From assembly GCA_004431415.1 (NCBI GenBank), contig QPMI01000489.1:55710-119709 (forward strand): a stretch of DNA of 64,000 nucleotides, given 5' to 3'. Shown piece by piece: positions 18,524-64,000 of the stretch (positions within the stretch are counted from its first letter, which is position 1; each line of letters starts with the position of its first letter). This DNA is from Cyanophora paradoxa CCMP329. Its lineage: Eukaryota; Plantae; Glaucophyta. The position numbers and the translations under genes are program-made. Below the pieces are notes generated by a model. The model was not told the DNA's origin. It made no database searches and saw only the letters and a list, made by a program, of their open reading frames with translations.

Positions 18524-19290
18524 TACCGTAGTACGTATAATTATATAAGTTTTTTCCACAAAGCCCATATCAAGGGCAGAAGTCTTATTCCAGAACAGCT
18601 GCAGTACGAAGCTGTATACGTACTACCAGTGTAGGCATAGCTTGCGCTGTAGCTAGGCTGTAATTTAAGTTGCACACTTTGCACCAGCGTTTATGCAGCT
18701 TTAATTATAAATTTACTATATTTGACAACGCACTTGCAACTTATCATGCATCAATATTGTAATCCGATGATCGTTTCGAATTTCCCTGCAATTCAATTCG
18801 AAATCATGACAACGACCCGCCGCAGCTTCGAATTCGAGGCCTGCCTCCGCCCGATCCGCTGCCAAGCTTCGGACAAGGGACTCGCGATCGGCTTCCGTCC
18901 GCGTCGCGGCACGCTCACCGTCGGTCCTCTGGAACTTCCCCGGCGGCGACAAGCGTGTACGTAGGCTTCGTACCGTCAACGACCCCCAGTGCACTTGCGA
19001 CCAGGAATTAATCTCGAACCCACGTGCACCGACTCCCGAAGGATTGTTCGTACACTATTTCGAGTTCTATATATATGTGGGCTCTTGCCAAAGGTCGAGC
19101 TCTCGAGCTTGCCCTTTCGCTGTCAATGCATTGTTAACCCTCGGAGGTTCGATGAGTCACGCGTCACGGAGGTTACATTGTTATATTGCATTCAGGGAGG
19201 CAGGGGACTAACACGTCTGACGTACCCCCCCCCCAGGCCTCCCAGCCTCTAACCCTCTCGCGCGCTAACTGAATGCTGTACCCCCTGCTG

Positions 19291-20031
19291 TTACTGCCCG
19301 AACCTTCCGAACTTGCGTAATTCGGCCTCGCCCTGTACCCAGTGGCTGGTGTCGTCCATCCATTCACGTACCTCCCTCTGACGCTTGAGTGAGTCACGCT
19401 GCTCGGGGGTAGGGGAGGGGGGGCCTTCGAGGCGGGGTGGGGAAGGGGGTACGGTGGCAAAATTCAGCCACTCGGGGGGTATGCCAAATTCGCCGTGAAC
19501 GATCCTCTGCGGTGTGAAATACCGGTCGCTGCTCACGGCCAAGTGGAAGAACGCGCTCCTGAGCCCGGAGAGGAAGCGTGGTTGCATGAATGGCTGCTGG
19601 AGGGACTCGTCGCGCCAGGGGGCTACGAAATCAATGATACGCTGCTGTACCTGCGCGGGCAGGGCAAGGATCTGGCTCTTGCGGTTCGCAAAGGCCGTCC
19701 ATAGGGCTTTCAGGTCCGCCCAATCGCCGTTCAGATCCCTGCGTTCGCGCCTCAGGTACGATCTCGGGTTCTCTGTCATACCCATCAAGCCCGCGGCCCT
19801 GATCATCTCCCTGTCCGGGAGCTCTCGCTCGTCGTGGAATTCGTCTCTCATCCAGCGCACAAGGTAGAGCACGCGCTCCATGAAGTTCTCCGCCGGCGAG
19901 CCGCCCCCTGAGGACGTGCGCCTCCCCTCCAGCACTGCGTTCGCATCCTCCAAGTCCACGTTCCGCTGACGAATCTCCCCGTCCAGGTCGCCGTTGTTGT
20001 ACAGCACGTCGGACTCGCGTGTTCGCGCCAT
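19291..20031 (-). CDS. Hypothetical viral protein, paralog of 20070-20784
   Basis: Intronless 246-aa ORF; SPAENFMERVLYLVRWMRDEF and KSQILALPAQVQQRIIDF align by eye with the neighbouring ORF. Confidence 0.6.
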   Translation of the reverse strand: MARTRESDVLYNNGDLDGEIRQRNVDLEDANAVLEGRRTSSGGGSPAENFMERVLYLVRWMRDEFHDERELPDREMIRAAGLMGMTENPRSYLRRERRDLNGDWADLKALWTAFANRKSQILALPAQVQQRIIDFVAPWRDESLQQPFMQPRFLSGLRSAFFHLAVSSDRYFTPQRIVHGEFGIPPEWLNFATVPPSPPRLEGPPSPTPEQRDSLKRQREVREWMDDTSHWVQGEAELRKFGRFGQ

Positions 20032-20069
20032 GCTTGCGGCTCACTGAGAATATCTATCTGTACCCCCAA

Positions 20070-20784
20070 TCACGTCCATCTCCACGTCAAGCGATTATTC
20101 TCGAAAACGGGGTACGCCTCCTCCTCTGGGGGTATAGTGCCGACCTTTGGCTCGCCCGGCAGACGGTTTCGATCGTCCTGCAGCCAGTCGCGCAGCCGCT
20201 TGCGCTCGTTGACGGGGGGCCTCGAGTCGAAGGGGGATACGTAGGCGGGGGGCGGGGTGGGGCGGGCGGAAGCTCTTGCCAGCTCCGGGGTACGAGCTCG
20301 CGTGGAATCTCGAGCTCCGTGTACCGTGAGCCGTCGTACTGCCGGACACCGCCTTCGCCTGTACGCATGTACCACTGTATCTCATTTCGAAGCCCATTGA
20401 TCACATCGCCTTCGCGCCCGTCTCTACCTGCGAGTAAGAAGTTCATGATCTTCAACCTGGCCTCGTTCGGCAGACGCGCCACGCGGCTTCTAGGCGACAT
20501 CAGCGCCACGTACAGGGACGTAAGCACACTGCTGAAGTCCCAGTTCCGATCATAGGATGGGGGGCGAGCCTCACGGTATCCCGCAGCCCCTGGGATGCAA
20601 CAGGGGCTAGCCCCCTTAGCGGGAAGGACGACATTCCTATCTGATTTCGCATCCCCTCCTTGAATTTATCTCGGATCCAATGTGCCAAGCCCCTTACACG
20701 AGTCAGGAACTCTTCGGGGCTCGAATCTTCGTCCATATGCACGACCGGGTCCGAATCTTCGTCATCGGGCATTTGCAATTGCAC
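20070..20784 (-). pseudogene. Frameshifted paralog of 19291-20031 (breaks may be sequencing errors)
   Basis: Pieces in three overlapping ORFs: SSPEEFLTRVRGLAHWIRDKF / RSRVARLPNEARLKIMNF..PRSWQELPPAPPRPP / NERKRLRDWLQD. Confidence 0.5.
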
Positions 20785-20822
20785 ACATCAAGAAATTCTA
20801 AACGCTACTGCGAGGCTAAGCC

Positions 20823-21479
20823 ATGCATACCGATACAGATTGCGAGACTTTGCAACAGGGGAGCGCGGCGTGGCACGCGGCGCGCCGTGAAAAACTAACT
20901 GCATCTAATTTTGCGGCTGCGTGTGGTATAAATCCCTGGAAATCCAGGGCCCGCCTCTGGGCGGAGCTAAGCGGCATAGCGGAGGAAAACAACTTCGACA
21001 ACCCTGCGCTAACCTACGGACACGACTACGAGCCGCTCGCGGTCTCTCTCTACAAGGCACTGAACGATAACGTTGACATTAAACATACTGGACTGCACGA
21101 ACATAAGGAGCTGCCCTTCCTGGCGGGAAGCCCGGACGGGTTAATCGGAAACGATCGCATCCTCGAAATAAAGGCGCCCTACAAACAAGAACTCTATGAC
21201 AAGGTTCCTACCTATTACATGACGCAGCTGCAAGGACTTTTAGACATAACGGGCCGCGAGTGGGCCGAACTTTTTTGCTTCACGCCTCTGCGCGTGCAAA
21301 CGTGGTACGTCAGACGGGACGAGAGGTACATCGAGCTCATGCGGCAGTGCTTACAGCTATTTTGGATGCACATCAAGGCGGGGACTCCGCCCGAGCCCTA
21401 CAGCGATCGAATGAAGTCGGAGGACCTGAGCGAGGAGCAGGCGGCCCTCCGGGCCTTTAAGTTGTACGCCCTCCTCTAG
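20823..21479 (+). CDS. YqaJ/lambda-exonuclease family viral recombinase-nuclease
   Basis: QQGSAAWHAARREKLTASNF, YGHDYEP, FLAGSPDGLI, LEIKAP, YYMTQLQGLL. Confidence 0.92.
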   Translation: MHTDTDCETLQQGSAAWHAARREKLTASNFAAACGINPWKSRARLWAELSGIAEENNFDNPALTYGHDYEPLAVSLYKALNDNVDIKHTGLHEHKELPFLAGSPDGLIGNDRILEIKAPYKQELYDKVPTYYMTQLQGLLDITGREWAELFCFTPLRVQTWYVRRDERYIELMRQCLQLFWMHIKAGTPPEPYSDRMKSEDLSEEQAALRAFKLYALL

Positions 21480-21672
21480 TGTCCGGACCTTTCCGATACT
21501 CTATATGATTATTGGGAGGGTCCGGACACATCTCCTGGGCGGACTACTTCTGTCCCAGGCCCTCGTAAGACTATTACCCATATTCCAATGACCCCGGACA
21601 GCGCTTCGTCGGACTAGGTAGTGTCCGGACCTTTCCGATAATCTATATGATTCTCGAGAGGGTCCGGACACT
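21479..21672. repeat. Two ~51-bp imperfect palindromes GTGTCCGGACC..GGTCCGGACAC
   Basis: Copies at 21479-21529 and 21620-21672; a third, inverted copy at 54408-54458. Confidence 0.85.
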
Positions 21673-21779: not shown

Positions 21780-23188
21780 CTAGATACGCCTGTGAACCAA
21801 CGAGTAGCAATCGCGAAAGACGGTGTACACCTCCGAAATACTCGGGGCTGCGCCTAGCGCCGCGAATGCAGCACCCTGCTGCGCCTGCCGCTCGACTGCA
21901 TCCTCAAATATGTCCTCCTTCCACGTGACGTATCTGCGCTTGCGATGTCCCAGCTGCCCGCCGTCCTCTTCGCTGAAAACGCGCCTCACTCCCATGTACT
22001 TTTCGAGCAGGTACTTGATCACTTGCCAGCACTGCTGCGAGAGCTTCTTTTGCTGTTCGGTCGTAGCATCCAAGCGAGGGCAACGCTCATCCAAACTCTG
22101 CAGTGCCGCATAGGCCTCCCGACCGTCTGCGGAGGCGAGCGCCTCGTAGGCCTCCTTCGACCAGAGGACGCGCCCCACCAGCTTGCCGTACCCCTTCCAA
22201 CCGAACAATTTCTTGAAAAGCGACACGATCTTAGAAACCTTTAGGCGCTCCGTCGAAGGCACGATCTCTTCAAGGGGCATGTCGTATTTCAGCACCAGGT
22301 GGATCGTCGCCTTCAGCGGAATCGAGTACATCGTGCTCCACATCCAAGAGACGTCATCCTCGGTCAGCTCGTCGGAACTCTTAACGAGAAATGCAGCGAC
22401 AGCTGCCCGAGTGAGCGACAGCAACTTAGCGGACTCGAGCTGCGCAAGAGATTCGCGGGATTTCCTCCACTCTTGGACGAGGTCGTTGAGCGCGGCTGGG
22501 CCGAGGACACCGGCGTTCAGCACGCTCTCGATCTCTCGCTTCTGCCTCGCCCGCTCTTGGGCAGGTGCATTCGATCCTTGGTCCTCCGTGATTAGCACAT
22601 TCATCCACGGGCAGGTAGAGAGGAGCCGAAGTCGAGCGGCGACAGCAAGGCGGCGGGTCGGCATGCCGGCTCGCCGAGTGCCGTGGTGAATTGCTTTCAG
22701 ATCCAGAAAGCGCTGCGCGTCTGCATCGTCGCTCCCGTCACTCTCGTGCCAGTGCCCGATTGCCTTCTGCACCTGCACTTGCGGTGTACGATTCTTGCGG
22801 ACGGCAACGAGCAGGTGCTCCCCCCCTGGCGGATCGCCCTGAAGCTGCTCGCGCAGAGCTCTCGCTCGAAACAGCAGCTGCACGATGTCTTCGGACTCCA
22901 GCTGTGCGGGCTCCACGTGGAAGATGCCGTAAATTTTGTCGAAGTGCGCTTCGGGAAAATCAACGCCTGCCCCGAGCGCAGATGTAGCGATCAGCACGTC
23001 GCAAGCTTTATACGCTCCCTCTTCCGATAGATCGACGGGTGAGATGCGAACGGGCCCCTCCTTGATGAAGCGACAGCTCTTCTCCTTCGCCTGACCGACG
23101 ATCAAGCCAATCACGAAGGGTGAGGCAGACTCGTCGGCCCAATCGCGTGCCGATTCCTGCGCTTGCCTTGCTAGGCTCTCTGCAATCT
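21780..23188 (-). pseudogene. C-terminal piece of the interrupted UL9/origin-binding-protein-like SF2 helicase
   Basis: DVLIATSALGAGVDF..HFD..DIVQLLFRARAL (SF2 motifs V/VI of UL9 type). Joins the middle piece in frame (PAKAM-EIAES) once element A and one TSD copy are removed. Confidence 0.85.
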
Positions 23189-23193: not shown

Positions 23194-23598
23194 AGCTCAG
23201 CACTGCGCCGTGTCTCCAAAAAAATACCCGCGAAAAAAATCAAAAACAAATCAGAAAACAAACCATTCCCAGTAACCCAATCTTGAATATCAGTAAATCT
23301 CAGTAAGCCTCAGTAACCAAAATTGAATTAATCGAAGTTATATCATAATCTCGATTAATTATATCTTATCGAAGTTATATCTTTTTTATGCGCCGTGTCT
23401 CCAAAACAATTCCCAAGAAAAACAAACCATTCCCAGTAACCCTATTCGTATTCAACAGTAATCTCAGTAAGCCTCAGTAACAAAAATCGAATTAATCGAA
23501 GTTATATCTTAAATCTTATTTATCGAAGTTATATCATAATCTCGATTAATTATATTTAATCGAAGTTATATCCTTTTCATCCGCCGTGTCTCCCATGA
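23194..23598 (+). repeat. Left TIR of element A
   Basis: Reverse complement of 34331-34734 with local mismatches; internal ~185-bp repeat units and 5 copies of ATCGAAGTTATATC. Confidence 0.93.
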
Positions 23599-23599
23599 T

Positions 23600-24661
23600 T
23601 TAGCGTTTCGTTAAACCACTTCTCAAATTGTATCTCCTCCGAATTACATTACTCCGATTGGGTTTTATGCCTTCTTTTGCTACCAATCGATTCACTTTAT
23701 TCGTTTTATTAACCTGCTGAATCCGTTTTTGTGATGGTATCTTAATGATATCATCTTTATTCACCTTTTGCAATTCTTGTTTCTTAAATCTCCTCTTCAC
23801 TTCTTTTGTTTCCTCACCATCATTATCTTCAAGCACTTTGAAACGATTCCTATCAGCCTTTGCAACAGTGTAGACCTTCTGACTGAATTGCGCACCTTCT
23901 TTTTCAAACAATCCCTTTGGTTGCAAAACTCGAACTGTGTCTCCTGGTTTCACTTGATTAGTATCAGCCTCCTTTACACGATTGTTGTGAACAGTATCCC
24001 TCATGTAAATAAATAACTGTTTATCTTCATTTGTATACACTGCATTTGGAGAGTCATTTTTCAATGCAGAATGGGGACTGCTATTATACAAGTCAATTAC
24101 ATCACTAAGTAGATCGATCCATTTCGTGGTTCCCTTTGCTGTCATCGATTTTCTGAGATACTGTTTGAAAGTCCTAGTGAACCTATCAATTATCCCCAGT
24201 TTATCTCCTACTGTGATGTGGTCATCCTTTGCCACATCTGTGTATAGCATTACACCATGTTCACTGCACCAATTTCGGTATACTGCCTGGGAAAACTCAT
24301 TATCCCCAGAGAGAGCATTAACTTTGCCTGCTTCTTGCTTGAACCTATTTAAAATGCTCGGGATCTCACTGCTGTTTTTAAAAGGATAAACAAATCCTTT
24401 GCGACTAAGTATGTCTACGAAACTAAGCATTTTGAAAATGCCATTGTTGGCAGTCTGAAACCCTCTGAAATATGTTATATCGATTTGAAACGATCTAGGC
24501 TTTGCCACTATGCGAAGAAACGATTTGGGTTTCCTTGGTTTCTTGTAAATTTGCTGGAGTTCTGAGTTTTTGAACTTCTTTTTCAACTCTTTTTCATCAA
24601 AACTCACTTTTTCATTAATCAGTTTCTGCCTATACTTTTTGAATGATAATACACTATCCAT
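23600..24661 (-). CDS. Retroviral-type (rve) integrase, Polinton-like
   Basis: FQIDITYF, FVDILSRKGF, SGDNEF, GIIDRFTRTFK, YNSSPHSAL..SP, and an SH3-like C-terminus (GDTVRV..FEKEG). Confidence 0.93.
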   Translation of the reverse strand: MDSVLSFKKYRQKLINEKVSFDEKELKKKFKNSELQQIYKKPRKPKSFLRIVAKPRSFQIDITYFRGFQTANNGIFKMLSFVDILSRKGFVYPFKNSSEIPSILNRFKQEAGKVNALSGDNEFSQAVYRNWCSEHGVMLYTDVAKDDHITVGDKLGIIDRFTRTFKQYLRKSMTAKGTTKWIDLLSDVIDLYNSSPHSALKNDSPNAVYTNEDKQLFIYMRDTVHNNRVKEADTNQVKPGDTVRVLQPKGLFEKEGAQFSQKVYTVAKADRNRFKVLEDNDGEETKEVKRRFKKQELQKVNKDDIIKIPSQKRIQQVNKTNKVNRLVAKEGIKPNRSNVIRRRYNLRSGLTKR

Positions 24662-27600
24662 TATTGGGCGGCACAGTTACACTTAATATGAGAGAGGAAA
24701 CAATTTTTGGTAATGTGAGCCACAGCATTATTAATTCGATCTACCGAAATATCTTCAAAGTCCATGGCATTGTAGCATCGCAGGCAATGCCCATACTGCT
24801 TCCCATATCGCTGCTTGATCCAATCCCATGTGATGTAATCATGCTCATCGAATTGTCTGTTTGCTGCTCGGTCCTGATCCTTGTAAGTCGAAATCTTCTC
24901 GTTATTCTCTCTTTTCCACACTTTCCAGTGAGCCATTTCGAAATTATCATGGTAAATAACAACATCATCCAGCCTTGTGGTTCGAGTGAGAGCAACATAT
25001 AGCCACTTCTTTGAAACAAATGGCGCCCCAGTTTCGAACACGACTACCCTGTTCCCTTTGCAGCGAATCGTATCACCTTGAACAACATGGCAGGTGTTTG
25101 CGTAAGCCAGGGCGAAATGTTTGACTGCATCCCTGCTGAGAACAATCTCATCCTTCTTGTTGGCAATGTCAGCAATAATGAAACTGTCCTTTGAGAGCTT
25201 GACAATCTTGTAGACAAATCCATTATGAACTATCTTCCCACCCTTTGCAATACGAGTCTTTGCAACAACTTTGATCCCGCCAGCATAAATGGAAACATTA
25301 TCCCCGTAGTTCATTTTGTGAAGGGCTAGGTTCACCTCTGCACCCTTGCGGTTTGTATACACAATGCCTTTATCTGTCTTTGCCAATTCGTCCACAACCT
25401 TGAACCCGTACTTTGCTAGGACCTCACTTACACTCAAACCTTTCTCGAATAAATCAATTCGAATTTGCTCAACCTTTCTGCGATCTTCCTCAGTCTCATG
25501 GCGCTTGTTCACTTGGAGTAACAATTCGTTGGGGAACAGGCGATGGAGGATATCAAGGTAATACTCATCTTGATCAACACTCATATCCTGAATGGGTGGG
25601 TTCTGATACGGGTCACCTGTGGCAATGTATACCTTATCTGGGAACTGCTCATTCATGATGTGGTCCAGGGCTGCCAGTTCTCCAATCTTAAACTGACAGA
25701 TCTCATCAATAACAATGCAATCAAATTCTACCAAACCAGATGCATTCCCTCCTACGATTTCATCCATGTTCGACTCATCGATTTTGAGATGAAGGGCATC
25801 ATAGATTGTCTTCACATTTTTCAATCCTTGCTCTTTCATTTCCTTCACTCGCTTGTTGGTCGGAACAATATAGAGGGGATTTTTGAAACGCTTCCCATAT
25901 TCAACTGTCATGTGAGTCTTTCCAACTCCTGGAACTGATCCGAGAAGAACCCATCGTTTTTGTGTAGCCAGCAAATCACAAATCGCGGTTGTGTCATACT
26001 CATCAACCACAGAGTGTTTGGTATAACTGTAGTTCTCGATTTTCACAAAGTCAGTCGCTCTCTCAAACTTTCCGTAACGAATTCGTTTTGCCTCGAGGTC
26101 TTTCTTCTCACCTGAAAACTTTTTAGAAAAATTGGGGCAGCATTTCACACTGAATTTTCCAATATTCTCAAAGGCATTGCGATCGAATGACACTGGGGCA
26201 ATGGGTTCATAAGCGATCCCATAAACACAATCGGTGTTCAAAGCGAGTGGTCGGATCTGCTGTTTAGCGAGTTCGACACACTTCTCATACATACACATCC
26301 TCATAATTGACAAGAGGGTAGTGTACAATGGCATGAAGCCATCAATGAGCTGCTTTTCTGCTACCTGATTGACATAGTAGATATGGGGTTCGGTCATCTC
26401 TTCCTCACACAGAACGAACTCTGTCTCCTCATAAGTGGCAAGAGTCTCACCAAAGAGGTAAATTTTAACCTCTCCTCCGTTCTGTTTTTGGAACTCGATT
26501 GCATCGTCTCTGTTGTGGAAAATGGTGGTTTTCACTCTGCTATTTCGTTGCTTTCCAGTTTGCCCAATCGCACTCACTAAGATCTGCTTCTTATCAACAG
26601 GATCGAGGTCGCTATCTAAGATTCGAGCAACTGTGTTGCCTGCAAGGTTGGGAATGAGTTTGTAAGGTCGCAGAACCGCTTTGATGGAGATGTCATCCTT
26701 GAAATCCTCGAAATGCTTTTTGAGAACCAAACCAGGAACGACATTGTACTTGGAATCAATGATCATCCTCTTGTATCTGTTGTAGGTGTTTGCTTCATAC
26801 TCCTTTCCGTTCTTGTCTTTGGCTTTGAAAAAGTATTTGTCGTCCAGTTTCACATAATAGAAGCTGTACTCCTCGATTTGCTCTGCAGCTGTGATTGTCA
26901 CACTCTTGAAGACATCGAACTTGCTGAGAACAGGAACGAATTTGATCATCAAGGCTACAATGTAAGGGTATGCTTTGCACATATCGAACTCGTAAATATC
27001 TGTGTTGTAGCGAATTTCATCAAAGGTTTCCTCATCCACATCAAAGAGACCACGAAGGGCAGTCTGCACTCCATTCTTGAATGCATTTATGGTTTGCTCA
27101 TTGTAAGTACTCTTGTTGGAAGTGTTGATTAGAGACCTATACATATCCAGATTTAGTTTCTCGAATTTATCTCTGTACTCAGCATTCTTGAAGCTAATCT
27201 CGAAAGCTGTTTCCACATCTGTATCGTTACCAGGTGGGGTCACGACAACATCCTTATCGTCAATAGTGAAACGAATATGGGTTGCCTTTCCGATTTGGGA
27301 GAACCCAGGTTGCACCTGATAATTATGCACCACAATGAACTCTCTGAGAAGTTCATCCAGTGAACCACCATAGCAGATTCGAATGCTCGATTGGTTCTTT
27401 GGATTGTCAGACCTGACAATTCTCAGAATGTCGTCTGGATTTGTGGCAAACTCCTTGAACCTTCTTTGCTTTATAATCTTGTAACGAGAACTGAGTGGAA
27501 CATTGGTATCTTTTGGCTTGGAGCCATTGAAGGACTGTGTGAGAGCCTTAATATTGTGATTTAACAAATACATGTGACCATTCTCAATCTTCACATATGC

Positions 27601-28749: not shown

Positions 28750-28990
28750 TTCTTTGTTCACTCTATTAATATATACCTACAAAAGTTTTCTTTAAATACT
28801 TTTATACTCGCGTCAAATTTTACCGGCAAAACCAAAAGTCTCCAACAAAATATATTTAGTCGAGGGCATTCATAAAAATAACGAAGGGTTGGCTCGATCA
28901 GCGAACTCTAAAAATAACAGAATGATTTTATTTGTGGTTCCAGCGCGGTTCCCACGGGTTTCTCAGAGCAGATCGCGCTGAGAAAAACGA

Positions 28991-30359: not shown

Positions 30360-30395
30360 TTGTAATATTGAAACAAATTTATTCTACAGTATTTC

Positions 30396-31283: not shown

Positions 31284-31335
31284 TCTGTTTAATAAAGCAT
31301 TTTAAAAATTTCTTTTGGTATTTTAAACATAAGAG

Positions 31336-46078: not shown

Positions 46079-46096
46079 AATAATCTTATATTACAA

Positions 46097-50912: not shown

Positions 50913-50933
50913 TAAGTAAAGAACAATCAAAAG

Positions 50934-51934: not shown

Positions 51935-51942
51935 GTAAAAGA

Positions 51943-52206: not shown

Positions 52207-52253
52207 AGAGAGATGGGTTTATTGTTATTTTTCATAGATCATGCATAAGAAAG

Positions 52254-54407: not shown

Positions 54408-54458
54408 CTGTCCGGACCCTCCCTAGAATCATATAGATTATCGGAAAGGTCCGGACAG
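54408..54458 (-). repeat. Third (inverted) copy of the GTCCGGACC palindrome
   Basis: Reverse complement closely matches 21621-21671. Confidence 0.85.
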
Positions 54459-56688: not shown

Positions 56689-57318
56689 CTACGCATCTGT
56701 ACACATGGCTGCCTGCAAGTTCGTGGGAAGGGGGTGCGCCTTAGGGAGGGCGGGGAGGGTGTCTGGAATCGGCAGTGCCGGTATCGCCTGCGCCGGGATC
56801 TCATTCAGAACAGCATGGCGTCCATGATGCTCCAAGGCGAGAATGTTGTAGCACTGAGCTGCTTCAATTTCTGTTTTGAAGTAGAACTCTTTCACTTTCT
56901 TCGGGGCCACCTTTATTTTGGCCACCCAGAGGTTATCTCGTTTCCGAAAGTCCACGCCCTTGAACTTTGAGGTGAATTCACGACCAGCTGGAGGGCGCAT
57001 TTTCGCTCGATTCCTGCAATTTTCGGATTTAGTGACGAACTCCAGGTTGCATTTTCGGTTGTCGAGCTTGTTTCTGTTGATGTGGTTGGTTTCTCTACCT
57101 GTAGGCGGCTTGCCCATGATGAAGTGATGAATCAGCACGTTTCGATGTTTTCCTTCTCCGTTCCATTTCATGTATGCCTTTGCGTAGCCCAGGTAGTTGA
57201 CGCTCCAACCATGTTTCGACACTCGCTCGTAGTCCTCGGCATCGATGAGCATGTGCAGGCCCTCGCCATGTTTGCCTGATAATTTCACCTCTATGCAGTT
57301 TCCGGCTGTTCCCTGCAT
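56689..57318 (-). CDS. HNH endonuclease with AP2 DNA-binding domain
   Basis: LIDAEDY..W..GYA..IHHFIM..NHINRNKLDNRKCNL..EN..N; TSKFKGV..WVAKI..FKTEIEAAQCYN..HG..A.LN. Confidence 0.9.
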   Translation of the reverse strand: MQGTAGNCIEVKLSGKHGEGLHMLIDAEDYERVSKHGWSVNYLGYAKAYMKWNGEGKHRNVLIHHFIMGKPPTGRETNHINRNKLDNRKCNLEFVTKSENCRNRAKMRPPAGREFTSKFKGVDFRKRDNLWVAKIKVAPKKVKEFYFKTEIEAAQCYNILALEHHGRHAVLNEIPAQAIPALPIPDTLPALPKAHPLPTNLQAAMCTDA

Positions 57319-57386: not shown

Positions 57387-57578
57387 ATGGCCTTCGCTGA
57401 CTCCTATCCCAACCACTACACCCTTGGAGCCCTCGCCGCGACCCTCACCTGGCTCCTCGGCGGCACCCCCACGGCCTCGGCCGTCATAGGCGTGGGCTTC
57501 GGCTACGCCGCCAAGACCCTCTACGCCCCCGGCTCCGTCTCGATGGCGACGGCCGGCATGCGCCCCGCGGGGCGCTAA
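57387..57578 (+). CDS. Small hydrophobic viral protein
   Basis: ATG 57387 after TTTTCTAA; two hydrophobic segments. Confidence 0.5.
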   Translation: MAFADSYPNHYTLGALAATLTWLLGGTPTASAVIGVGFGYAAKTLYAPGSVSMATAGMRPAGR

Positions 57579-57696
57579 GTTAACTCTCCCTTTTCAAAGT
57601 TTTCCCAAGTTCATACCCCCCTTTCCCTTTTCCAAGTTGCTCAAGTCCGTCGACGTTCCCTTTTAAATTTTCTTCATTCACGTTACACGTCTGAAC

Positions 57697-58182
57697 ATGC
57701 CGAACGCCGTAGAGAAGCTGTTGTGTACGGTGTTCAAATCGGACTCGCGCTGCAGCAAGATCGGCGAGGCTGCCAAGGGCGGGGGCGGGGCGAAGGTCGA
57801 GGGGCCTAAGCTAAGGGGCGCGGACCCGGCGCCGCCGGCGCTGAAGTCGATTAAGGCTGCGGGCAAGGGCCGCGGCGTCGGGCCCCTGCCCCTCGTGGCG
57901 ATCGCCCCGGGCCAGCGCGAGGCGGCGCACGCGGCGACGGCGGCGCTGGCCTCGCAGCAGCAGAGGGAGGGGGCGCCGCGCCTGAGCGCCGGCATCTGGG
58001 CGCAGCCTGCGCCCGCGCGCGAGTACGGCGTCAGCGCTTACTTCGACGGCGCGAACGAGCTGAGCCGCCAGGAGATCTGGGCCTGGGAGGCGCGGCGCGC
58101 GGTCGACGGGCACCTGCCGCTGCTCGTGGCGCTCGGCGGCTCGCTCCTGATGGTCTGGTACCTGCGCGGCCTGACCCTCTAG
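57697..58182 (+). CDS. Hypothetical viral protein with C-terminal TM helix
   Basis: GC3-rich codons; LPLLVALGGSLLMVWYL. Confidence 0.55.
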   Translation: MPNAVEKLLCTVFKSDSRCSKIGEAAKGGGGAKVEGPKLRGADPAPPALKSIKAAGKGRGVGPLPLVAIAPGQREAAHAATAALASQQQREGAPRLSAGIWAQPAPAREYGVSAYFDGANELSRQEIWAWEARRAVDGHLPLLVALGGSLLMVWYLRGLTL

Positions 58183-58208
58183 TTAGTTTTTCGAAGCGCT
58201 AGCTAAAG

Positions 58209-58598
58209 ATGGGCTGGGTGGACGCCGTGCTCACCAAGGTCTTCGGCCCGAAGAGTGCGCAGCCGCCGCCGAGCTTCAACCTGGCCGCGGCGATCAGCAC
58301 GACGATCGAGCGCAAGAACAACGAGCTCATCCTCAAGAACGACGGCAAGCTTCCTTGGGCCGACGTGGCCGCGGGCGCGCTCGGCAGCACGCTGACGGGA
58401 ATCGATCGGACGGGCGCCGCGGGCGTGAAGGTCGGCCAGGCGGTTGCGGCCGTGCCGGAGCTTGCGATGAAGGGCTGGCACTACGCCAAGATCGCCGCCG
58501 GCGTCGCCGCGGTGCTCCTTGCGATCTGGCTCGCGTGGAAGCTGCGCGGCGCCTACCAGGGCGCGCGGCTGCAGAGCGCGCAGCTCGACTATTTCTAA
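58209..58598 (+). CDS. Hypothetical membrane protein (Gly2, possibly myristoylated)
   Basis: MGWVDAVL.. and IAAGVAAVLLAIWLAW. Confidence 0.6.
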   Translation: MGWVDAVLTKVFGPKSAQPPPSFNLAAAISTTIERKNNELILKNDGKLPWADVAAGALGSTLTGIDRTGAAGVKVGQAVAAVPELAMKGWHYAKIAAGVAAVLLAIWLAWKLRGAYQGARLQSAQLDYF

Positions 58599-58955
58599 GC
58601 TAGGTAAGCGCGACAGCCCGCGGCTTCCGTGTCCTCTGAGGAACAGCGGACCTGAGCGCGTAGCTGAGCGCAGCGTTCATCAGAGCAAGCGCTTCTAGAA
58701 GCAGACGTCGCTTTCCATCAAGACGCGGGATACGGAAGTCATCACAAGCGCAGACGTACAGGCGATAGAGGCCAGTTGCTGCCCACGGACACGGTTCCCG
58801 GGCTGCCGGGCACCACGGCCGGCGAGCTCCTAGTGCGCAACCTGCGCCTGCAGTACGTCTCCCGCCTCCGCCGCTCCAAGGCCAAGAAGGCGCGCCTGGA
58901 CTCGGGCGATAGCAGCTCTAGCTCGTAGGGCTCTGTACTCTTGTATTCAATGCCG

Positions 58956-59240
58956 TTACCAGTTCCTGTTCCTATCCCAGAGCACGACTCGGGTAAAGGG
59001 CACGGTCATAGCGAACATGAACTCGGCAAATTTGGCGAAGTTCATGAGGGTCCCTAGGCGCGGGTCCTCCCAGTAGATAGCTTCGCGCAGGGACTCGTAG
59101 ATGCGCATGAGGGAGCGCTCGTTCTCGGTCGCGAAGGCGTCGGAGGGCTCGTCGGGATCCGGATCCGAGAGCTCCGAGTACTCGTCCGAGCTGCCCGCGC
59201 TCTCGACGCCTGCGGCCGGGTCGGGCGAGGGGTCAGCCAT
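58956..59240 (-). CDS. Small acidic protein resembling small NCLDV hypothetical proteins
   Basis: Acidic N-terminus then LMRIYESLRE..MNFAKFAEFMF; upstream TTTTCTAG. Confidence 0.55.
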   Translation of the reverse strand: MADPSPDPAAGVESAGSSDEYSELSDPDPDEPSDAFATENERSLMRIYESLREAIYWEDPRLGTLMNFAKFAEFMFAMTVPFTRVVLWDRNRNW

Positions 59241-59266: not shown

Positions 59267-59608
59267 TCACGGCCGCCGGTACTCCATCGAGTCGCCGCGC
59301 CAGTACTTGTTGCCGGAGGCGAGCAGCTTCATCGGCTCGCCCGTCGAATCGTGCGTCCAGGCCTCGCCCGTCCAGACGGCCGTGCCGCCGTCCTCTAGCT
59401 TGAGGCGGTGGCCCGCCTCGAGCCGATCGCCGTTGAGCATGCGGCCGGCCATGAGCGCCAGGTCCCACTCGGTGAGGCCGCGCTGCTCTTCCGCGGTCAG
59501 GCCGCGCTCGACGCGCTCGGGCTGGCGCGCCTCGCGCTCCATGCGACTGAGGCCCACTAGAAAGAAGATGGGCAGCGCAAAGGCCATGAGATCTAGCAGG
59601 GCCTCCAT
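59267..59608 (-). CDS. Hypothetical viral protein with hydrophobic N-terminus
   Basis: MEALLDLMAFALPIFFLVGL; upstream TTTTCTAA; packed head-to-tail with neighbours. Confidence 0.55.
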   Translation of the reverse strand: MEALLDLMAFALPIFFLVGLSRMEREARQPERVERGLTAEEQRGLTEWDLALMAGRMLNGDRLEAGHRLKLEDGGTAVWTGEAWTHDSTGEPMKLLASGNKYWRGDSMEYRRP

Positions 59609-59618
59609 TGGGCAAGAC

Positions 59619-59908
59619 TTAGAAAAGGTTCCGGGCCAGGCCCGAGAGCTGCGGGCCCAGGCGCCGGGCGGCGTAGTAGAGCGCGGCGGCCGCGGCGGCC
59701 AGGATCAGGAGGCGCGGCGGGCCGCGCGCGGGCTCCTCTGCGGTCAGGTCAACGGCCTCGGGCTCGCGCGCCGGCGTCGCCAGGATCTCGGGCTCGGAGC
59801 TAAGGGACTTGGGCCCGCGGCGGCGGCGCTGCTTCGGTGCAGAGGCGGCTGCAACGGAGAGAAGGTCCTCAGGCTCCTGCTTGATACCTGCGCAATCGGT
59901 GAAGTCCA
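59619..59908 (-). CDS. Small protein with C-terminal hydrophobic segment
   Basis: MDFTDCAGIKQEPE..LLILAAAAAALYYAA. Confidence 0.45.
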
Positions 59909-59980
59909 TGCTTGCTGGGTACCTTGGAAAATTGTGGGAGGCGCCCGGAGGCTGCGAACGAAGGGCAACTTGAAACTTCG

Positions 59981-60433
59981 GCGTCATTTACGTCCGCGTC
60001 ATTTACGTCAGCGTCATTTACGTCACGGAGTTTGCCGGCGACTCGGGACCTGGGCCAGGGCCCGGGGAAAAAAATTCGAGACTTGGAAAAATAGGGTATC
60101 CCTAATACCGCTAGTACCAGTAGCTACTAGTACCGCTAGTACTACGTAGTACTACTTAGTACTACTACTGTACTACTTAGTACTACTACTGTACTACTTA
60201 GTACTACTTGCTCAGTACTACTAGCTACCGGTACTGGTACACCTTTTATAGATTTAAGCATTCATTCAATGTGAATAACGATAATAGTAATAATAATAAC
60301 GATAAATAATAGGGATACCCTATTTTTCCAAGTCTCGAATTTTTTTTCTCGGGCCCTGGCCCAGGTCCCGAGTCGCCGGCAAACTCCGTGACGTAAATGA
60401 CGCTGACGTAAATGACGCGGACGTAAATGACGC
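59981..60433. repeat. 124-bp inverted repeat (59981-60104 / 60310-60433) carrying three GACGTAAATGACGC-type units around an AGTACT/AT-rich spacer
   Basis: Direct comparison; a partial third copy lies at 61212-61282. Confidence 0.9.
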
Positions 60434-60479
60434 GACCCTTCGGTTAATTAATTCAGCAAGCGCTAGCGCTAGCTAGATA

Positions 60480-60887
60480 TCACAGCTCTACCTGGCCCAA
60501 GTTGATGGTATCTAGCAGGGCCTGCTCTTCCAAGTCTGCACCGCCGCCGCCCAGCGCTAGCGCTAGCTCGATACCGCCTCCGGACTTGATCTCCCTTGGC
60601 TCCAGCCACCTGAGGGGCTCAGGCCACCTCCTCCTGGTGAAGCCCGTATCGTTGCTCTTGTCCAGCTTGAGGTAGCGGTAGGGCGCCGGCGCCGGCCAGT
60701 CGGGCCTGTGGCTGCTGGCCTCCTTGGCTATCTCCTTGGGGCTACGCGGACGCAGGTCTGCCTTGGCCTTCGCCCTCTGCAGAGGGCCCAGCGCCTTGAA
60801 CTTCGGTGCCTTCGTCGCCGGCAGGGCCTTCGGCTGGGGCTTCACCGCCTTCGGCTGCTGAGGCCTTAGCTGCTTCGATTTCGGCAT
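60480..60887 (-). CDS. Basic Lys/Pro-rich hypothetical protein
   Basis: ORF overlaps the 3' end of 60742-61125; no family recognised. Confidence 0.4.
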   Translation of the reverse strand: MPKSKQLRPQQPKAVKPQPKALPATKAPKFKALGPLQRAKAKADLRPRSPKEIAKEASSHRPDWPAPAPYRYLKLDKSNDTGFTRRRWPEPLRWLEPREIKSGGGIELALALGGGGADLEEQALLDTINLGQVEL

Positions 60888-61125
60888 ACTTCTTGCTCAT
60901 AAATGAGAAAAGCGCCTCGAAGTCGGCCTTTATCTCCTCCTTGGTCCAGGATGTCACCTGATCCGGGTCACCTGAGAACGGCGCATCGAACGCCACGTGG
61001 AGCGATTTGCAGGCCTGAGCTATCATTGGCTCGGGCCAGGCCAGCTCGATCAGCTGAAGGTAGATGTTCAGGGCCTTGTCGAGCTTGGCGCCCTGAGAGA
61101 CTAGCTGGGAGATAGCGGGCTCCAT
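60742..61125 (-). CDS. Hypothetical viral protein
   Basis: Helical N-terminus; upstream TTTTCTAA motif. Confidence 0.5.
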   Translation of the reverse strand: MEPAISQLVSQGAKLDKALNIYLQLIELAWPEPMIAQACKSLHVAFDAPFSGDPDQVTSWTKEEIKADFEALFSFMSKKYAEIEAAKASAAEGGEAPAEGPAGDEGTEVQGAGPSAEGEGQGRPASA

Positions 61126-61409: not shown

Positions 61410-61837
61410 ATGGCCCTTGTCGCCCAGTTCAACGTCGAGGAATACACCGTGCGCGTGATCGGCGAGCCATCGAACGCGAGGTGGAAGTTCTCAAGCACGG
61501 CGTAGTTTACGACTGCAGGGACTGCCCCGGCAAGACCCTCCTCATGAAGCTCGCCGACGATGGCCTCTCCTTCACCCTCATCTCCTGCATCAAGACCCAC
61601 GTTGGGCACACGGCCGGCATCATCACCTTCGCCGCGGGGCGCCTGAATTCCGACACCGTCGTCGTGCCGGAGTGGGCCGCGTTCTGGGCGGCGATCTCGC
61701 CCTCGGGCCGCGCCCTTGCCTACACCTTCTTCGGCAAGCACGACGAGTGCGACATCTGGGTGACGCGCAGGGCGATGGGCTCGATGGTCGTCAAGCGCGA
61801 CCAGCTGCACCAGCAGTGCGATTATCCTTTAGCATAG
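61410..61837 (+). CDS. Hypothetical viral protein (frameshift near 61478)
   Basis: ATG 61410 after a TATA-like TTTATAAG; GC3-rich codons continue in ORF 61481-61837. Confidence 0.5.
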
Positions 61838-62021
61838 ACGATAGGTCGATTACCTTTGATCTCGAGGCCAAGATCCCGCAGCCGTGCTGAAATTGACAGT
61901 GTAGCCCCTCTGAAATTGAACACGTGTTTTCTGGCTTTGTCTGAAGCTCACCTGACGCGGGGCCTTAAGAGGGTGCGCGGGGCCTCGTTTCCTCACACTT
62001 TATCAGCAAGCAAACGAGAGA

Positions 62022-62305
62022 ATGTGCGCCCCAAGTACTTCACCTGCTGCCTCACCTTCGGCATCTTCGAGTACGAGGCCATGGACGAGGATCTCGACGA
62101 GAACGGCGAGATCTGCTTCAACTACTGCAGGCTGCTGCGCAACATCTCGCTGGAGTGCCGCAAGGGCGACTGCTTCCAGCACATCATGCTCAATCCCGCC
62201 AAGAACGAGATCACCCTGTACGCCGTCGCCAGCCCCAGCGCCAGATTTAGACTCTCGAATATTCGCGTAGCCGTGATCGAGGCCCTCCCCTCCCCAGTGA
62301 GCTGA
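62022..62305 (+). CDS. Small Cys-rich hypothetical protein (probable frameshift just after the ATG)
   Basis: KYFTCCLTFGIFEYEAMDEDLDENGEICFNYC; preceded by the same promoter cassette as its neighbours. Confidence 0.45.
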
Positions 62306-62421
62306 ATTGAACACGTGTTTTACCTGAATCACCTGAGCGCTCACCCGAGGTCAGCTGAAGTCAGGCCGGGCGGCCTCAAATATTTTCTAGCGCTAGGCTG
62401 AAGCACACTAAGCTAACCAAC

Positions 62422-63198
62422 ATGGCCACCGTCCGCACGCCACGAGATCGACCCGCCAAGCTCGCCTTCGAATCGACGCCAACGGCCGCATCAAGGCCAA
62501 GTACGACGGCTTGCAGGGCCTCATGATGTACGCGCCGCCCATGGTCACGATCAACCCTGCATCAACACGAGCAAGGCAAGGCGTGGAGCGACGAGAAGAA
62601 GGCCTTCGTCATGGAAGAAAACGGCGGATTCTACACGCTGGACCTCACCGATCTCAGCGCCGTCGACGGCCAGACGAACCCGGCCGCGGACGAATTCCTC
62701 AAGCTGCTGGAGGCCCTGGACGCGAAATTCTGCGAGTTCGTGCAGCAGAACCAGGCCAAGCTCAAGGTCTCGCCCGGGCGCGCCCTCTCCAAGGACCAGA
62801 TCTCGGTGCTGCAGACGCCCAGCGTGCGCATCAAGGTCGACAAGGAGTCGGGCCAGGCCTTCTACAAGTACCTCAACATGCGCATCCGCACGCAGACGAT
62901 GGCCGGCAAGCGCAAGACCGTGCCCGTCGTCGACATGTCCAACTACCTCATCACCGAGCGCGCCACCATCGGCACCGGCGACCTGGTGGCGGCCCTCGTT
63001 AAAATCGACACCGCCTACGCCATCCCCGAGGGCAAGTTCGGCCTCAAGTGGTCCTTCCTCGCCGTGCAGCAGTGCAAGGTCGGCGCCTTTCGCTTCGCCG
63101 GCCGCACGCCCGAGCTGGCCTTCAAGCCCTACGACAACGAGGCCGATTTCGAGCCCTACCTAAACCCCGAGTCTATGTATGCAGCCCCCATGCAGTAG
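62422..63198 (+). CDS. Putative OB-fold ssDNA-binding protein (T7 gp2.5-like / NCLDV type); 5' part frameshifted
   Basis: FYTLDL..FLKLLEALDAKF..YLNMRI..GDLVAALVKI..GKFGLKWSFLAVQ, with an acidic/aromatic tail. Confidence 0.65.
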
Positions 63199-63252
63199 CT
63201 TAGCCGAATAAATTGTAATTTCTCTGGTGCAATTGATTACAAGCGTTTACAA

Positions 63253-63999
63253 TCAGAGGCCGTTGAACTTGCCGCCCACCGCCCTGGGCTCCGCCGCCGT
63301 CGAGGCCGCCGCCTCCGTCACCTCCTTCATCATCTCCGGGTTCGCGTTGGCCGCGTGCACCGCCAGCACCGTCTGCACCAGGGCCATCCCCAGGCGCGCC
63401 TCGGGCCCCAGGGTCACGTAGCGCGAGTACTTAATCACCAGCTCCTCTAAGATCGGCTGCACCTGGTCCATGGAAGAGAGCGTCGCCTGCCCGAGCCCGT
63501 CTAACTTCAGGCCGATCGGATCGTACGCTTTGTTAAGGTGCTCCAGCGAGTGCATGCCCGCGATCAGAAAGAGGCGCGCCGCCTCCAGCGAACCCCGCGT
63601 GCTCAGCTCGCGCTGAATTTCCTCGTACTCTTCCTTCAGCTCGTCCAGCGGCGTGGCGAGGCTCAGCTTCTTCGTGGACGTCAGCTCGCCCCCGAACGAG
63701 CGCCTGTACTGCGCGATCTGCCGCAGAACCTGCTTCTTCTCGTCCACGTCCACCTGCGCCTCGTCGCGCGGCCTCTCCTGCAGGTCGATCCCCAGCGCCT
63801 TTTTCACGCTCTGCTCCTTCTTCTTCGTCATTTCGATGTGCTCCTGCACGCTGAAGCTCGCGCCCTTGCTCGGCGCCGTCGGCGGCACCGTGGGCCCGTC
63901 GCCCGGTAGCGACGTCTTGTCGGCCTTCGGCGCCTTCTCGCCCTTTTCCTTGCCTTCCTTCGCGGGGCGGCCCTTCTTCCGAGGCTGCGGGATCCCCAC
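63253..63999 (-). CDS. DUF5767-like Nucleocytoviricota protein (5' end probably outside the window)
   Basis: LDELKEEYE..LEHLNKAYDPIGLKLDG..ILEELVIKY..LGPEARL..VHAAN matches the family pattern as I recall it. Confidence 0.7.
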   Translation of the reverse strand: MGIPQPRKKGRPAKEGKEKGEKAPKADKTSLPGDGPTVPPTAPSKGASFSVQEHIEMTKKKEQSVKKALGIDLQERPRDEAQVDVDEKKQVLRQIAQYRRSFGGELTSTKKLSLATPLDELKEEYEEIQRELSTRGSLEAARLFLIAGMHSLEHLNKAYDPIGLKLDGLGQATLSSMDQVQPILEELVIKYSRYVTLGPEARLGMALVQTVLAVHAANANPEMMKEVTEAAASTAAEPRAVGGKFNGL

Positions 64000-64000
64000 C

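What the first reader, a model, noticed from the sequence alone, without database searches (positions are those of the whole stretch)
18700..64000. Outer element looks like a compact Nucleocytoviricota-related virus using UL9-like helicase + YqaJ + SSB
Seen: intronless, tightly packed ORFs with host-like high GC, including YqaJ, an OB-fold SSB-like protein, a DUF5767-like protein and several small TM proteins. Known: lambda-exonuclease and SSB genes are typical of Nucleocytoviricota, including their small Yaravirus/mriyavirus-type relatives. Inference: an endogenised small NCLDV-like lineage with a herpes-like replication logic (origin-binding helicase, exonuclease, SSB). Its capsid, ATPase and polymerase genes are not in this window, so the classification is open.
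Basis: partly seen in the sequence, partly recalled or inferred. Interest (0 to 1): 0.7.

Follow-up and report, generated by a model that had tools for sequence, protein, structure and literature searches.

The report
Multi-copy mriyavirus provirus in glaucophyte alga
The stretch is the left part of a virus-derived element that sits in dozens of copies in the alga Cyanophora paradoxa and is likely a mriyavirus, a small relative of giant viruses; it joins genes of one mriyavirus branch to a helicase type known only from the other branch, and two smaller Polinton-like viruses have inserted into that helicase gene.

Summary
The host is Cyanophora paradoxa (database labels). From about 19,100 to the window end, minus two Polinton-like viruses (23,194-34,734 and 35,834-53,719, each with a target-site duplication), lie 15.5 kb of one multi-copy element. 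Its exonuclease, T7-type SSB (fold confirmed) and DUF5767 gene match profiles built from free gamadvirus contigs (E 4e-51, 4e-23, 5e-30). By gene order they are mriyavirus PDDEXK, PEV_26 and Mriya_48. Sister copies continue with PEV_20 and Mriya_51. A WTTCT motif precedes 12 of 15 element genes and 97 of 217 gamadvirus genes. The 1,032-codon UL9-like SF2 helicase belongs to the element and is flanked by 49-bp hairpins. None of the 60 published mriyavirus representatives combines SF2 helicase with PEV genes, and the trees place this lineage outside the sampled gamadviruses. Capsid, ATPase, VLTF and HUH genes were not seen, because the window ends and the genome was not held. A preprint already notes mriyavirus-related regions in a glaucophyte assembly in one sentence. 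Verdict: new variant of a known kind; the 'herpes-like logic' is a plausible but untested reading of known mriyavirus parts.

The parts
19100..64000 (.). Outer element (left part of a multi-copy mriyavirus-like provirus); 15,463 bp after removing both PLVs; runs off the right end
   Evidence: Depth step at about 19,100; size; synteny on other C. paradoxa contigs
19291..20031 (-). 246-aa ORF without a family match, conserved among copies
   Evidence: Cluster of 6 members, on contigs that also carry the SSB or helicase; 7 of 8 listed differences at third codon positions
20087..20772 (-). Two short ORFs, probably one frameshifted gene
   Evidence: ORFs; extra base at 20558 in DNA contigs; no Pfam or PHROG hit
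20823..21479 (+). YqaJ / lambda-type exonuclease, matching the mriyavirus PDDEXK family
   Evidence: PF09588 E 6e-28; gamadvirus HMM E 4e-51; best gamadvirus 127 bits against 86 for the best of 3 phage proteins
21480..21528 (.). 49-bp imperfect palindrome, copy 1, directly behind the exonuclease stop codon
   Evidence: 3 matches against 0 in 100 shuffles; hairpin -38 kcal/mol; high depth in DNA and in one RNA-like run
21622..21670 (.). Palindrome copy 2, about 110 bp downstream of the helicase stop
21780..23188 (-). UL9-like SF2 helicase, 3' piece
   Evidence: P0102 (tig342) reads across the PLV1 site without a break
23194..34734 (.). Nested Polinton-like virus 1 (TIRs, rve integrase, large helicase-domain protein, capsid-like ORF, A32 ATPase), 5-bp TSD
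   Evidence: TIRs, TSD CCATT, Pfam; capsid type resembles one listed in PMC10120064 Table S2 (by eye)
34735..35827 (-). UL9-like SF2 helicase, middle piece with Walker A and B
   Evidence: PF02399 E 5e-13; NF042913 CyRepA1 E 2e-9, below cut-off
35834..53719 (.). Nested Polinton-like virus 2 (1.46-kb TIRs, rve integrase, A32 ATPase, capsid-like and fibre-like ORFs), 6-bp TSD
   Evidence: TIRs, TSD ACCAGC, Pfam; P0070 and P0067 read across the site
53720..54316 (-). Helicase 5' piece; N-terminal region without a recognised domain; the three pieces add up to 1,032 codons without a stop
   Evidence: no Pfam or AEP-like motif
54409..54457 (.). Palindrome copy 3, inverted relative to copies 1 and 2, about 90 bp upstream of the helicase start
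   Evidence: (62 bp at 92% to 21610-21670)
56689..57318 (-). HNH-AP2 endonuclease, low-depth accessory gene
   Evidence: PF13392 E 4e-6; phrog_99 E 2e-28; contig depth 557
57387..58928 (+). Four small sense ORFs (57387, 57697, 58209, 58671), two with a C-terminal hydrophobic segment
   Evidence: Clusters of 10 and 13 members; GC3 0.72-0.94; hydropathy
58956..59240 (-). 94-aa acidic protein, weak match to gamadvirus PEV_34
   Evidence: Top of 1,010 window ORFs at E 0.003; hhalign probability 57%; 16 of 21 listed differences at third positions
59267..61125 (-). Four small ORFs (59267, 59619, 60480, 60742) around a non-coding inverted repeat at 59981-60433
61411..62305 (+). Two small, frameshifted ORFs upstream of the SSB
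   Evidence: related sequence in gene models P0004, P0028
62422..63198 (+). T7 gp2.5-type OB-fold SSB (gamadvirus PEV_26); 5' part frameshifted in this assembly
   Evidence: (E 4e-23)
63253..64000 (-). DUF5767 protein, by position the mriyavirus Mriya_48 envelope protein; 5' end cut by the window
   Evidence: PF19071 E 2e-13; gamadvirus HMM E 5e-30; order mapping

Best explanation
The window holds the left 15.5 kb of one copy of a multi-copy integrated element of Cyanophora paradoxa that is likely a mriyavirus provirus, a divergent relative of the gamadviruses that carries a UL9-like SF2 helicase. SHOWN: gene identities, multi-copy synteny, the upstream motif, the hairpins, and the two PLV insertions that split an otherwise open helicase frame. 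INFERRED: (1) capsid, ATPase and VLTF genes lie to the right, as in 35-45 kb mriyaviruses; (2) genes are read by host RNA polymerase II from the WTTCT motif, probably with viral late factors; (3) the helicase opens the DNA, most plausibly at the hairpins that flank its gene, the SSB coats the single strand and a host polymerase copies it; (4) exonuclease plus SSB act as a resect-and-anneal pair that supports recombination-dependent replication and integration, since no integrase was seen in the window; (5) this copy has lost its helicase to the PLV insertions and can replicate only with help from another copy. I put about 0.8 on the mriyavirus identity, 0.55 on a complete virion module in most copies and 0.3 on the hairpins being the helicase's origin.
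For: Gamadvirus-derived HMMs find the window's exonuclease (E 4e-51), DUF5767 (5e-30) and SSB (4e-23) among 1,010 ORFs, and neighbours in sister copies match PEV_20 (2e-6) and Mriya_51 (4e-10). The SSB alignment retrieved 27 IMG/VR loci, all with the gamadvirus block order. ORF order in L122 fits the numbering of the 42,686-nt gamadvirus row of PMC11253617 Table S1. The order SSB, DUF5767, PEV_20, Mriya_51 is contiguous on tig443 (g767-g764) and recurs on others. WTTCT 12-40 nt before ATG: gamadvirus starts 97 of 217 against 373 of 7,758 other ATGs; element starts 12 of 15 against 13 of 299, including helicase and exonuclease. The SSB family has 22 clusters, 20 of them EukProt gene models named like the C. 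paradoxa set. Helicase models lie within 2-11 gene numbers of element genes on 5 of 8 other contigs. An uninterrupted helicase exists in P0102. A preprint reports mriyavirus-related regions, placed in a capsid tree, in a glaucophyte assembly (10.1101/2025.04.19.649669).
Against: No capsid, ATPase, VLTF2, VLTF3 or RuvC match in the outer element within the window; capsid and ATPase hits fall only in the PLVs. Mriya_50 and Mriya_1 were not found. Labels for Mriya_48, PEV_20 and Mriya_51 rest on gene order, not on the paper's sequences. The gamadvirus SSB-ATPase-VLTF3 block is not kept: the SSB abuts Mriya_48 tail to tail. Trees put the lineage on long branches outside the sampled gamadviruses, and the exonuclease tree is the unfinished quick one. 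The helicase has only 3 clear relatives among 1.84 billion representatives, all from C. paradoxa, and matches a yaravirus-type SF2 helicase at only 5 bits. The helicase region has far lower DNA depth (about 510-550) than the gene cluster (3,000-27,000), so this helicase type is in few copies. The element's motif was first noticed by eye, and start codons were chosen by me.
Confidence: 0.75

Rival explanations
1. The helicase gene with its flanking inverted hairpins is a separate mobile or swappable cassette that entered a gamadvirus-like provirus; the virus proper uses another helicase or several interchangeable ones.
For: Hairpin copies 2 and 3 form 62-bp inverted ends at 92% identity around the gene. 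At least three helicase types (99%, 75-80%, about 50% identity) occur in the genome while the SSB copies are about 98% alike. Loose ends of other copies begin at 21489-21559, at the hairpin. No published representative joins SF2_hel to PEV genes.
Against: All three helicase types sit next to element genes (tig342, tig443, tig983, tig21763). The helicase start carries the element's WTTCT motif. No target-site duplication was evident at the hairpins by eye. The hairpins may simply be 3'-end signals of the two convergent genes.
Confidence: 0.25
2. A capsid-less derivative of a mriyavirus that now spreads inside the genome like a large transposon or by segmental duplication.
For: No virion core gene was seen; many gene models of sister copies are broken or fused; host-like GC.
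Against: Envelope-type Mriya_48 and Mriya_51 are kept in 20 or more copies; differences among copies fall mostly at third codon positions; many breaks may be long-read errors; the preprint placed glaucophyte sequences in a mriyavirus capsid tree.
Confidence: 0.15
3. A fragment of a giant endogenous viral element of Megaviricetes, as reported for C. paradoxa by best-hit taxonomy.
For: DUF5767, T7-type SSB, YqaJ and UL9-like helicases occur in large viruses; the SSB's nearest predicted structures are from Mimiviridae and relatives; PMC12344493 reports GEVEs in this species.
Against: PEV_20, PEV_26 and PEV_34 were scored only in gamadviruses among the 60 representatives; all 27 retrieved SSB loci are gamadvirus-like, although the query included one gamadvirus sequence; dozens of near-identical compact copies.
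Confidence: 0.05
4. The ORFs are pieces of spliced host genes.
For: Minus-strand splice joints in RNA-like contigs over 57857-58380; a spliced antisense model has a longest open frame of 214 codons against 157 unspliced.
Against: Sense ORFs are uninterrupted with GC3 up to 0.94, match viral families and recur as a block on many contigs; the host genes at 1-12,000 are cut by many short introns.
Confidence: 0.02

Closest known systems
'Gamadviridae' (Pleurochrysis endemic viruses, Phaglo-G; Mriyaviricetes; PMC11253617)
   Same: PDDEXK exonuclease, PEV_26 SSB, Mriya_48, PEV_20, Mriya_51, probably PEV_34; order Mriya_51, PEV_20, Mriya_48; WTTCT upstream motif
   Different: SF2 UL9-like helicase where gamadviruses have SF3; SSB not next to ATPase and VLTF3; Mriya_50 not found; identities only 25-35%; outside the sampled clade in trees; glaucophyte host and dozens of integrated copies
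Yaraviridae with SF2_hel (8 of 60 representatives in PMC11253617 Table S1)
   Same: UL9-like SF2 helicase; both it and the L146 helicase hit NF042913 below cut-off; Mriya_48 and Mriya_51 homologues in L074
   Different: Those helicases carry an intact AEP primase domain, not detected here; direct similarity is only 5 bits; none of the 8 has PEV genes
Mriyaviricetes-related regions in a Glaucocystophyceae assembly (10.1101/2025.04.19.649669, Fig. 5f)
   Same: Probably the same element family; class-level assignment agrees
   Different: The section read gives one sentence, with no species name, gene content, copy number, helicase, motif or nested PLVs; figure and supplements could not be seen
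Herpesvirus UL9 / ICP8 / alkaline nuclease system (recalled, not from a call, except the fold hit)
   Same: SF2 origin-binding-type helicase beside palindromes with AT-rich centres, an SSB with a related OB fold (ICP8 Z 6.3) and a lambda-type exonuclease
   Different: No polymerase or primase seen; small T7-type SSB; no evidence that the helicase binds the hairpins; unrelated virion lineage
Endogenous PLVs of C. paradoxa (PMC10120064: 366 capsid genes in two groups)
   Same: The two nested elements resemble the two capsid types of Table S2 (by eye)
   Different: Their insertion into a mriyavirus helicase gene is not mentioned in what I read

Membership tests
Mriyaviricetes | NCLDV-like double-jelly-roll major capsid protein | tested here: inconclusive
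   Gamadvirus capsid HMM finds nothing in the outer element within the window; the right part is not available
Mriyaviricetes | A32 packaging ATPase, VLTF3, VLTF2, RuvC | tested here: inconclusive
   No outer-element hit in the window; ATPase hits are in the PLVs; the element runs off the window
Mriyaviricetes | HUH endonuclease | not tested
   Too few loci for an HMM; the single L056 HUH-like ORF gave no credible hit among outer-element ORFs
Mriyaviricetes | PDDEXK (YqaJ-like) nuclease | tested here: met
   E 4e-51 to the gamadvirus family; closer to gamadvirus than to 3 phage proteins by bit score
Mriyaviricetes | Mriya_48 | tested here: met
   E 5e-30 to the family that maps to Mriya_48 by order
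Mriyaviricetes | Mriya_51 | tested here: met
   In sister copies, two to three genes beyond Mriya_48: E 4e-10; outside this window
Mriyaviricetes | Mriya_50 and Mriya_1 | tested here: inconclusive
   No hit in the window or in the stored proteins
Mriyaviricetes | SF3 or SF2 helicase | tested here: met
   UL9-like SF2 helicase, 1,032 codons
Mriyaviricetes | Genome of 35-45 kb without PolB or RNA polymerase | not testable with these tools
   15.5 kb seen, none of these genes in it; no genome held
'Gamadviridae' | PEV_26 T7-type SSB | tested here: met
'Gamadviridae' | PEV_20 | tested here: met
   109-aa neighbour in sister copies, E 2e-6; pairwise only 11 of 34 identities
'Gamadviridae' | PEV_34, PEV_35, PEV_27, PEV_14, PEV_15 | tested here: inconclusive
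   PEV_34 weak (E 0.003, probability 57%); the others no hit in the window
'Gamadviridae' | Conserved block SSB, ATPase, VLTF3, minor capsid | tested here: not met
   SSB is followed by ATPase in 26 of 27 retrieved loci; here it abuts Mriya_48 in the opposite direction, also in sister copies
'Gamadviridae' | SF3 helicase | tested here: inconclusive
   An SF2 helicase is present instead; the paper calls the two mutually exclusive; no SF3 profile was run on the unseen part
'Gamadviridae' | Placement inside the clade | tested here: inconclusive
   Outside the sampled members on long branches in three trees with one or few outgroups
Yaraviridae SF2_hel group | Intact N-terminal AEP primase domain | tested here: inconclusive
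   No Pfam hit and no AEP-like motif in the N-terminal part of the window protein or P0067; no fold was made

The most novel reading that the evidence does not exclude
A third mriyavirus lineage, specific to glaucophytes, that persists as dozens of proviruses, exchanges a hairpin-bounded UL9-type helicase cassette that serves as its origin module, and is itself parasitised by Polinton-like viruses: PLV2 uses the same upstream motif (5 of 11 starts against 35 of 523 other ATGs) and inserts into the essential helicase gene. That would be a virophage-like parasite of a 40-kb virus rather than of a giant virus.
Probability: 0.15. Interest if true: 0.82.

Novelty: new variant of a known kind. Interest (0 to 1): 0.52.

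Why it matters
Mriyaviruses are proposed as the closest living relatives of the ancestor of giant viruses, and are known almost only from metagenomes. A family of dozens of copies in a cultured, sequenced alga would make their gene expression, replication and integration testable. The mix of gamadvirus genes with an SF2 helicase shows a replication-module combination absent from the 60 published representatives. The WTTCT motif shared with free gamadviruses is a candidate mriyavirus promoter, and it resembles the late TCTA motif of CroV and ChlorV (PMC13196603). If PLV2 depends on it, virophage-like parasitism reaches down to small viruses.

Tried and rejected
No whole genome was held, so the contig could not be extended. 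Scans with near-identical Cyanophora queries found no relatives: viral contigs, metagenome contigs, hairpin pattern, first motif pattern. Of the 118 loci from the relaxed motif, only 2 were true relatives. The single-sequence SSB model was unusable (pLDDT 39), and sequence searches of the PDB gave nothing. The Atlas gave no usable hit for the Mriya_51-like region. The helicase found no match in plasmids or phages; PF02399 did not detect the helicase of G001. No RNA holder was on record; the RNA label of X15, X17 and X18 is a guess, so expression is not claimed. Depths are summed contig depths and are used only as a rough guide. Six look-ups of earlier scan findings gave nothing relevant. Two PLVs in one 3.1-kb gene has a chance of 6e-5 per gene at the genome-wide density, but about 32,000 such stretches exist, so it does not show targeting. 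PLV1 lacks the motif (0 of 5). 'Ariadnavirales' (about 200 kb) was considered and dropped. No complex prediction and no genome-contig scan were run.

Full report
ANATOMY. The composition profile shows a GC-rich frame with an AT-richer block from 23 to 54 kb. Inverted repeats bound two elements in that block: 23194-34734 with a 5-bp duplication and 35834-53719 with a 6-bp duplication. Both carry an rve integrase and an A32 ATPase, and their capsid-like ORFs resemble, by eye, the two C. paradoxa capsid types in PMC10120064 Table S2 (supplement rows seen). They split one minus-strand gene whose three pieces give 1,032 codons with no internal stop. The middle piece matches Herpes_ori_bp (E 5e-13). 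The empty PLV1 site is real: P0102, a near-identical copy on another contig, reads straight across it, and P0070 and P0067 cross the PLV2 site. A DNA contig of 2,670 nt also runs 1,118 nt beyond the PLV1 junction, about the length of the middle piece.

HOST AND COPY NUMBER. Window proteins cluster with EukProt entries labelled Cyanophora paradoxa. The SSB search returned 22 clusters, the largest with 22 members; 20 clusters are EukProt gene models. DUF5767 gave 14 clusters, the largest with 22 members. In run X1, host flanks lie at depth about 200-250, the contig 17777-19099 at 250, and depth rises to about 5,000 or more from 19,100 on. The right gene cluster lies mostly at 3,000-27,000, while the helicase, the non-coding 54.5-56.9 kb stretch and the HNH gene lie at about 510-560. 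These are summed contig depths and only a rough guide. Gene numbers link a helicase model to element genes on tig983, tig443, tig21763, tig342 and tig21742, 5 of the 8 other contigs with a helicase model; the cluster lists were capped at 15 members. The 246-aa ORF lies 9 and 12 gene numbers from the SSB on tig20936 and tig194. So left arm, helicase and right cluster form one element.

WHAT LIES BEYOND THE WINDOW. Fused gene models gave two neighbours beyond DUF5767: a 109-aa protein and a protein of about 370 aa with 16 clusters. On tig443 the order SSB, DUF5767, 109 aa, 370 aa is contiguous (g767-g764). I could not walk further.

IDENTITY. A motif from the 370-aa family retrieved 118 viral loci, of which 2 were relatives. 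L056 holds homologues of the 370-aa protein, SSB, DUF5767 and exonuclease at 25-35% identity, next to VLTF3 and an A32 ATPase. An SSB alignment that included L056 retrieved 27 loci with the same block order; this sample is therefore biased towards L056's group. The order fits Pleurochrysis endemic virus 2 in Table 1 of PMC11253617 (section read). The ORF order of L122 fits the numbering of the 42,686-nt gamadvirus row of Table S1 from PEV_26 to VLTF2. This labels DUF5767 as Mriya_48, the 109-aa protein as PEV_20, the 370-aa protein as Mriya_51, the SSB as PEV_26 and the exonuclease as PDDEXK. The labels rest on position. Of 27 family HMMs run on 1,010 window ORFs, three hit the outer element strongly (PDDEXK 4e-51, Mriya_48 5e-30, SSB 4e-23) and one weakly (PEV_34, 0.003; hhalign 57%). 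PEV_20 and Mriya_51 hit stored sister proteins (2e-6, 4e-10). ATPase, capsid and minor capsid HMMs hit only the PLVs; VLTF2, VLTF3, RuvC and Mriya_50 hit nothing, and Mriya_1 nothing below E 0.7.

SSB FOLD. The model of P0001 with 25 relatives (pLDDT 71.6) matches T7 gp2.5, ASFV CP312R and Enc34 SSB, and many Nucleocytoviricota proteins in BFVD. The Atlas placed the window protein near DUF5871/DUF2738 clusters at 0.94-0.95, with a low recognition value.

WHERE IT DIFFERS. In Table S1 (all 60 rows seen; counted by eye) SF2_hel is scored in 8 genomes, none with a PEV gene, and no gamadvirus has it. The paper describes these helicases as UL9-related with an intact AEP domain. Here no AEP was detected. 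The helicase of L146, from a contig with the length of one SF2_hel row, shares the CyRepA1-like family hit but matches a Cyanophora helicase HMM at only 5 bits. A search of 1.84 billion representatives gave 4 hits: 3 Cyanophora helicases and 1 unrelated repeat protein. Trees of the exonuclease (quick IQ-TREE, unfinished), Mriya_48 and Mriya_51 (FastTree) put the Cyanophora sequences on long branches outside or at the edge of the sampled gamadviruses, with too few outgroups to place them. The SSB lies tail to tail with Mriya_48, not before the ATPase. I therefore file it as a likely mriyavirus close to, but not within, 'Gamadviridae'.

SIGNALS. WTTCT lies 12-40 nt before 12 of 15 element starts against 13 of 299 other ATGs, and before 97 of 217 gamadvirus starts against 373 of 7,758; PLV2 has 5 of 11 against 35 of 523, PLV1 0 of 5 against 34 of 422. 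I first saw the motif by eye in the element; the gamadvirus count is the independent test. CroV and ChlorV have a late TCTA motif (PMC13196603, passages), and virophages often share their helper's promoter (passages). Three 49-bp palindromes occur (0 in 100 shuffles): one behind the exonuclease stop, one behind the helicase stop and one before the helicase start. The first has high depth in one RNA-like run, which fits a 3'-end hairpin; the third does not fit that role and suggests an origin or a cassette end.

MECHANISM. Shown: parts, order, copy family, insertions, motif. From the literature: mriyaviruses lack PolB and RNA polymerase, probably replicate in the nucleus, and are thought to start by HUH nicking. 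Inferred: the SF2 helicase replaces the SF3 one; SSB and exonuclease provide resection and annealing, which could also explain integration without an integrase; this copy is helicase-dead.

EXPRESSION AND SELECTION. Contigs from runs guessed to be RNA cover most element genes but come from diverged copies; I do not claim expression of this copy. Listed differences fall at third positions in 16 of 21 and 7 of 8 cases for two ORFs; the tables showed only part of all differences. Splice joints seen only in those runs lie antisense to two ORFs.

PRIOR REPORTS. Searches. PMC12344493 (passages and one section) reports giant-virus elements in C. paradoxa without detail. PMC10120064 counts 366 PLV capsids. 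The preprint 10.1101/2025.04.19.649669 (passages and section 10) reports Mriyaviricetes-related regions in a Glaucocystophyceae assembly in one sentence; its figure and supplements were not visible and may bear on novelty. 10.64898/2026.06.19.733378 (passages) does not name Cyanophora. 10.64898/2026.08.29.747986 (first quarter) and PMC12085832 (one passage) were not decisive. These searches did not show the SF2-plus-PEV combination, the motif or PLVs nested in a mriyavirus.

VERDICT. A real, multi-copy viral element, likely a mriyavirus provirus; new variant of a known kind. Interest 0.52. The boldest open reading, a third lineage with its own virophage-like PLV, has probability 0.15 and interest 0.82.

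Noticed in passing
window 57857-58380: Contigs of RNA-like runs skip four host-type introns on the minus strand (three GT-AG, one GC-AG; three joints in all three runs, none in the DNA run), antisense to ORFs 57697 and 58209: possibly a spliced antisense RNA against the element.
   Followed up: partly
window 35834-53719: PLV2 has the element's WTTCT motif before 5 of 11 starts, including its capsid-like gene; PLV1 before 0 of 5. Not corrected for AT content beyond the local background.
   Followed up: partly
window 59962-61282: 127-bp inverted repeat around an AT-rich TACTAG-like spacer, with a third copy at 61185-61282; each arm holds three TGACGTAAAT-like repeats. Candidate origin or regulatory switch between divergent gene blocks.
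   Followed up: no
window 61890-62312: AAATTGA twice (61890, 61913) and a near match at about 62305 before the small ORFs and the SSB, the three starts region that partly lacks WTTCT; resembles the AAAATTGA early motif of mimiviruses.
   Followed up: no
window 15840-16600: High-depth repeat with inverted sub-repeats in the host flank (depth about 10,000 in X1), probably a MITE-like element.
   Followed up: no
window 54460-56600: Non-coding, host-like 2.2-kb stretch inside the element at low depth (about 510), perhaps a later insertion shared by few copies.
   Followed up: no
window 20500-20772: By eye a paralogue of the 246-aa ORF at 19291-20031 (similar stretch near the N-terminus); not tested.
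   Followed up: no
window 1-8400: Intron-dense host genes that look like an oligopeptidase B and an O-methyltransferase (recognised by eye, no search).
   Followed up: no
P0008, P0113, P0114, P0127, P0003, P0108: Relatives at 56-89% identity on short Logan and ENA contigs show that the lineage exists beyond this assembly.
   Followed up: no
L119-L145: Free gamadvirus genes carry TTTCT(G/A)A about 15-27 nt before the start, strongest for capsid, ATPase and Mriya_51 and rare for VLTF3 and minor capsid; my searches did not show this motif described for mriyaviruses.
   Followed up: partly
L146:5592-9346: This yaravirus-type 40-kb contig carries a class II ribonucleotide reductase and, by eye, dUTPase- and ThyX-like ORFs.
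   Followed up: no
tig00020936 (PMC10120064 Table S2): Another contig with element genes also carries a PLV1-type capsid gene; whether it lies inside the element is unknown.
   Followed up: no
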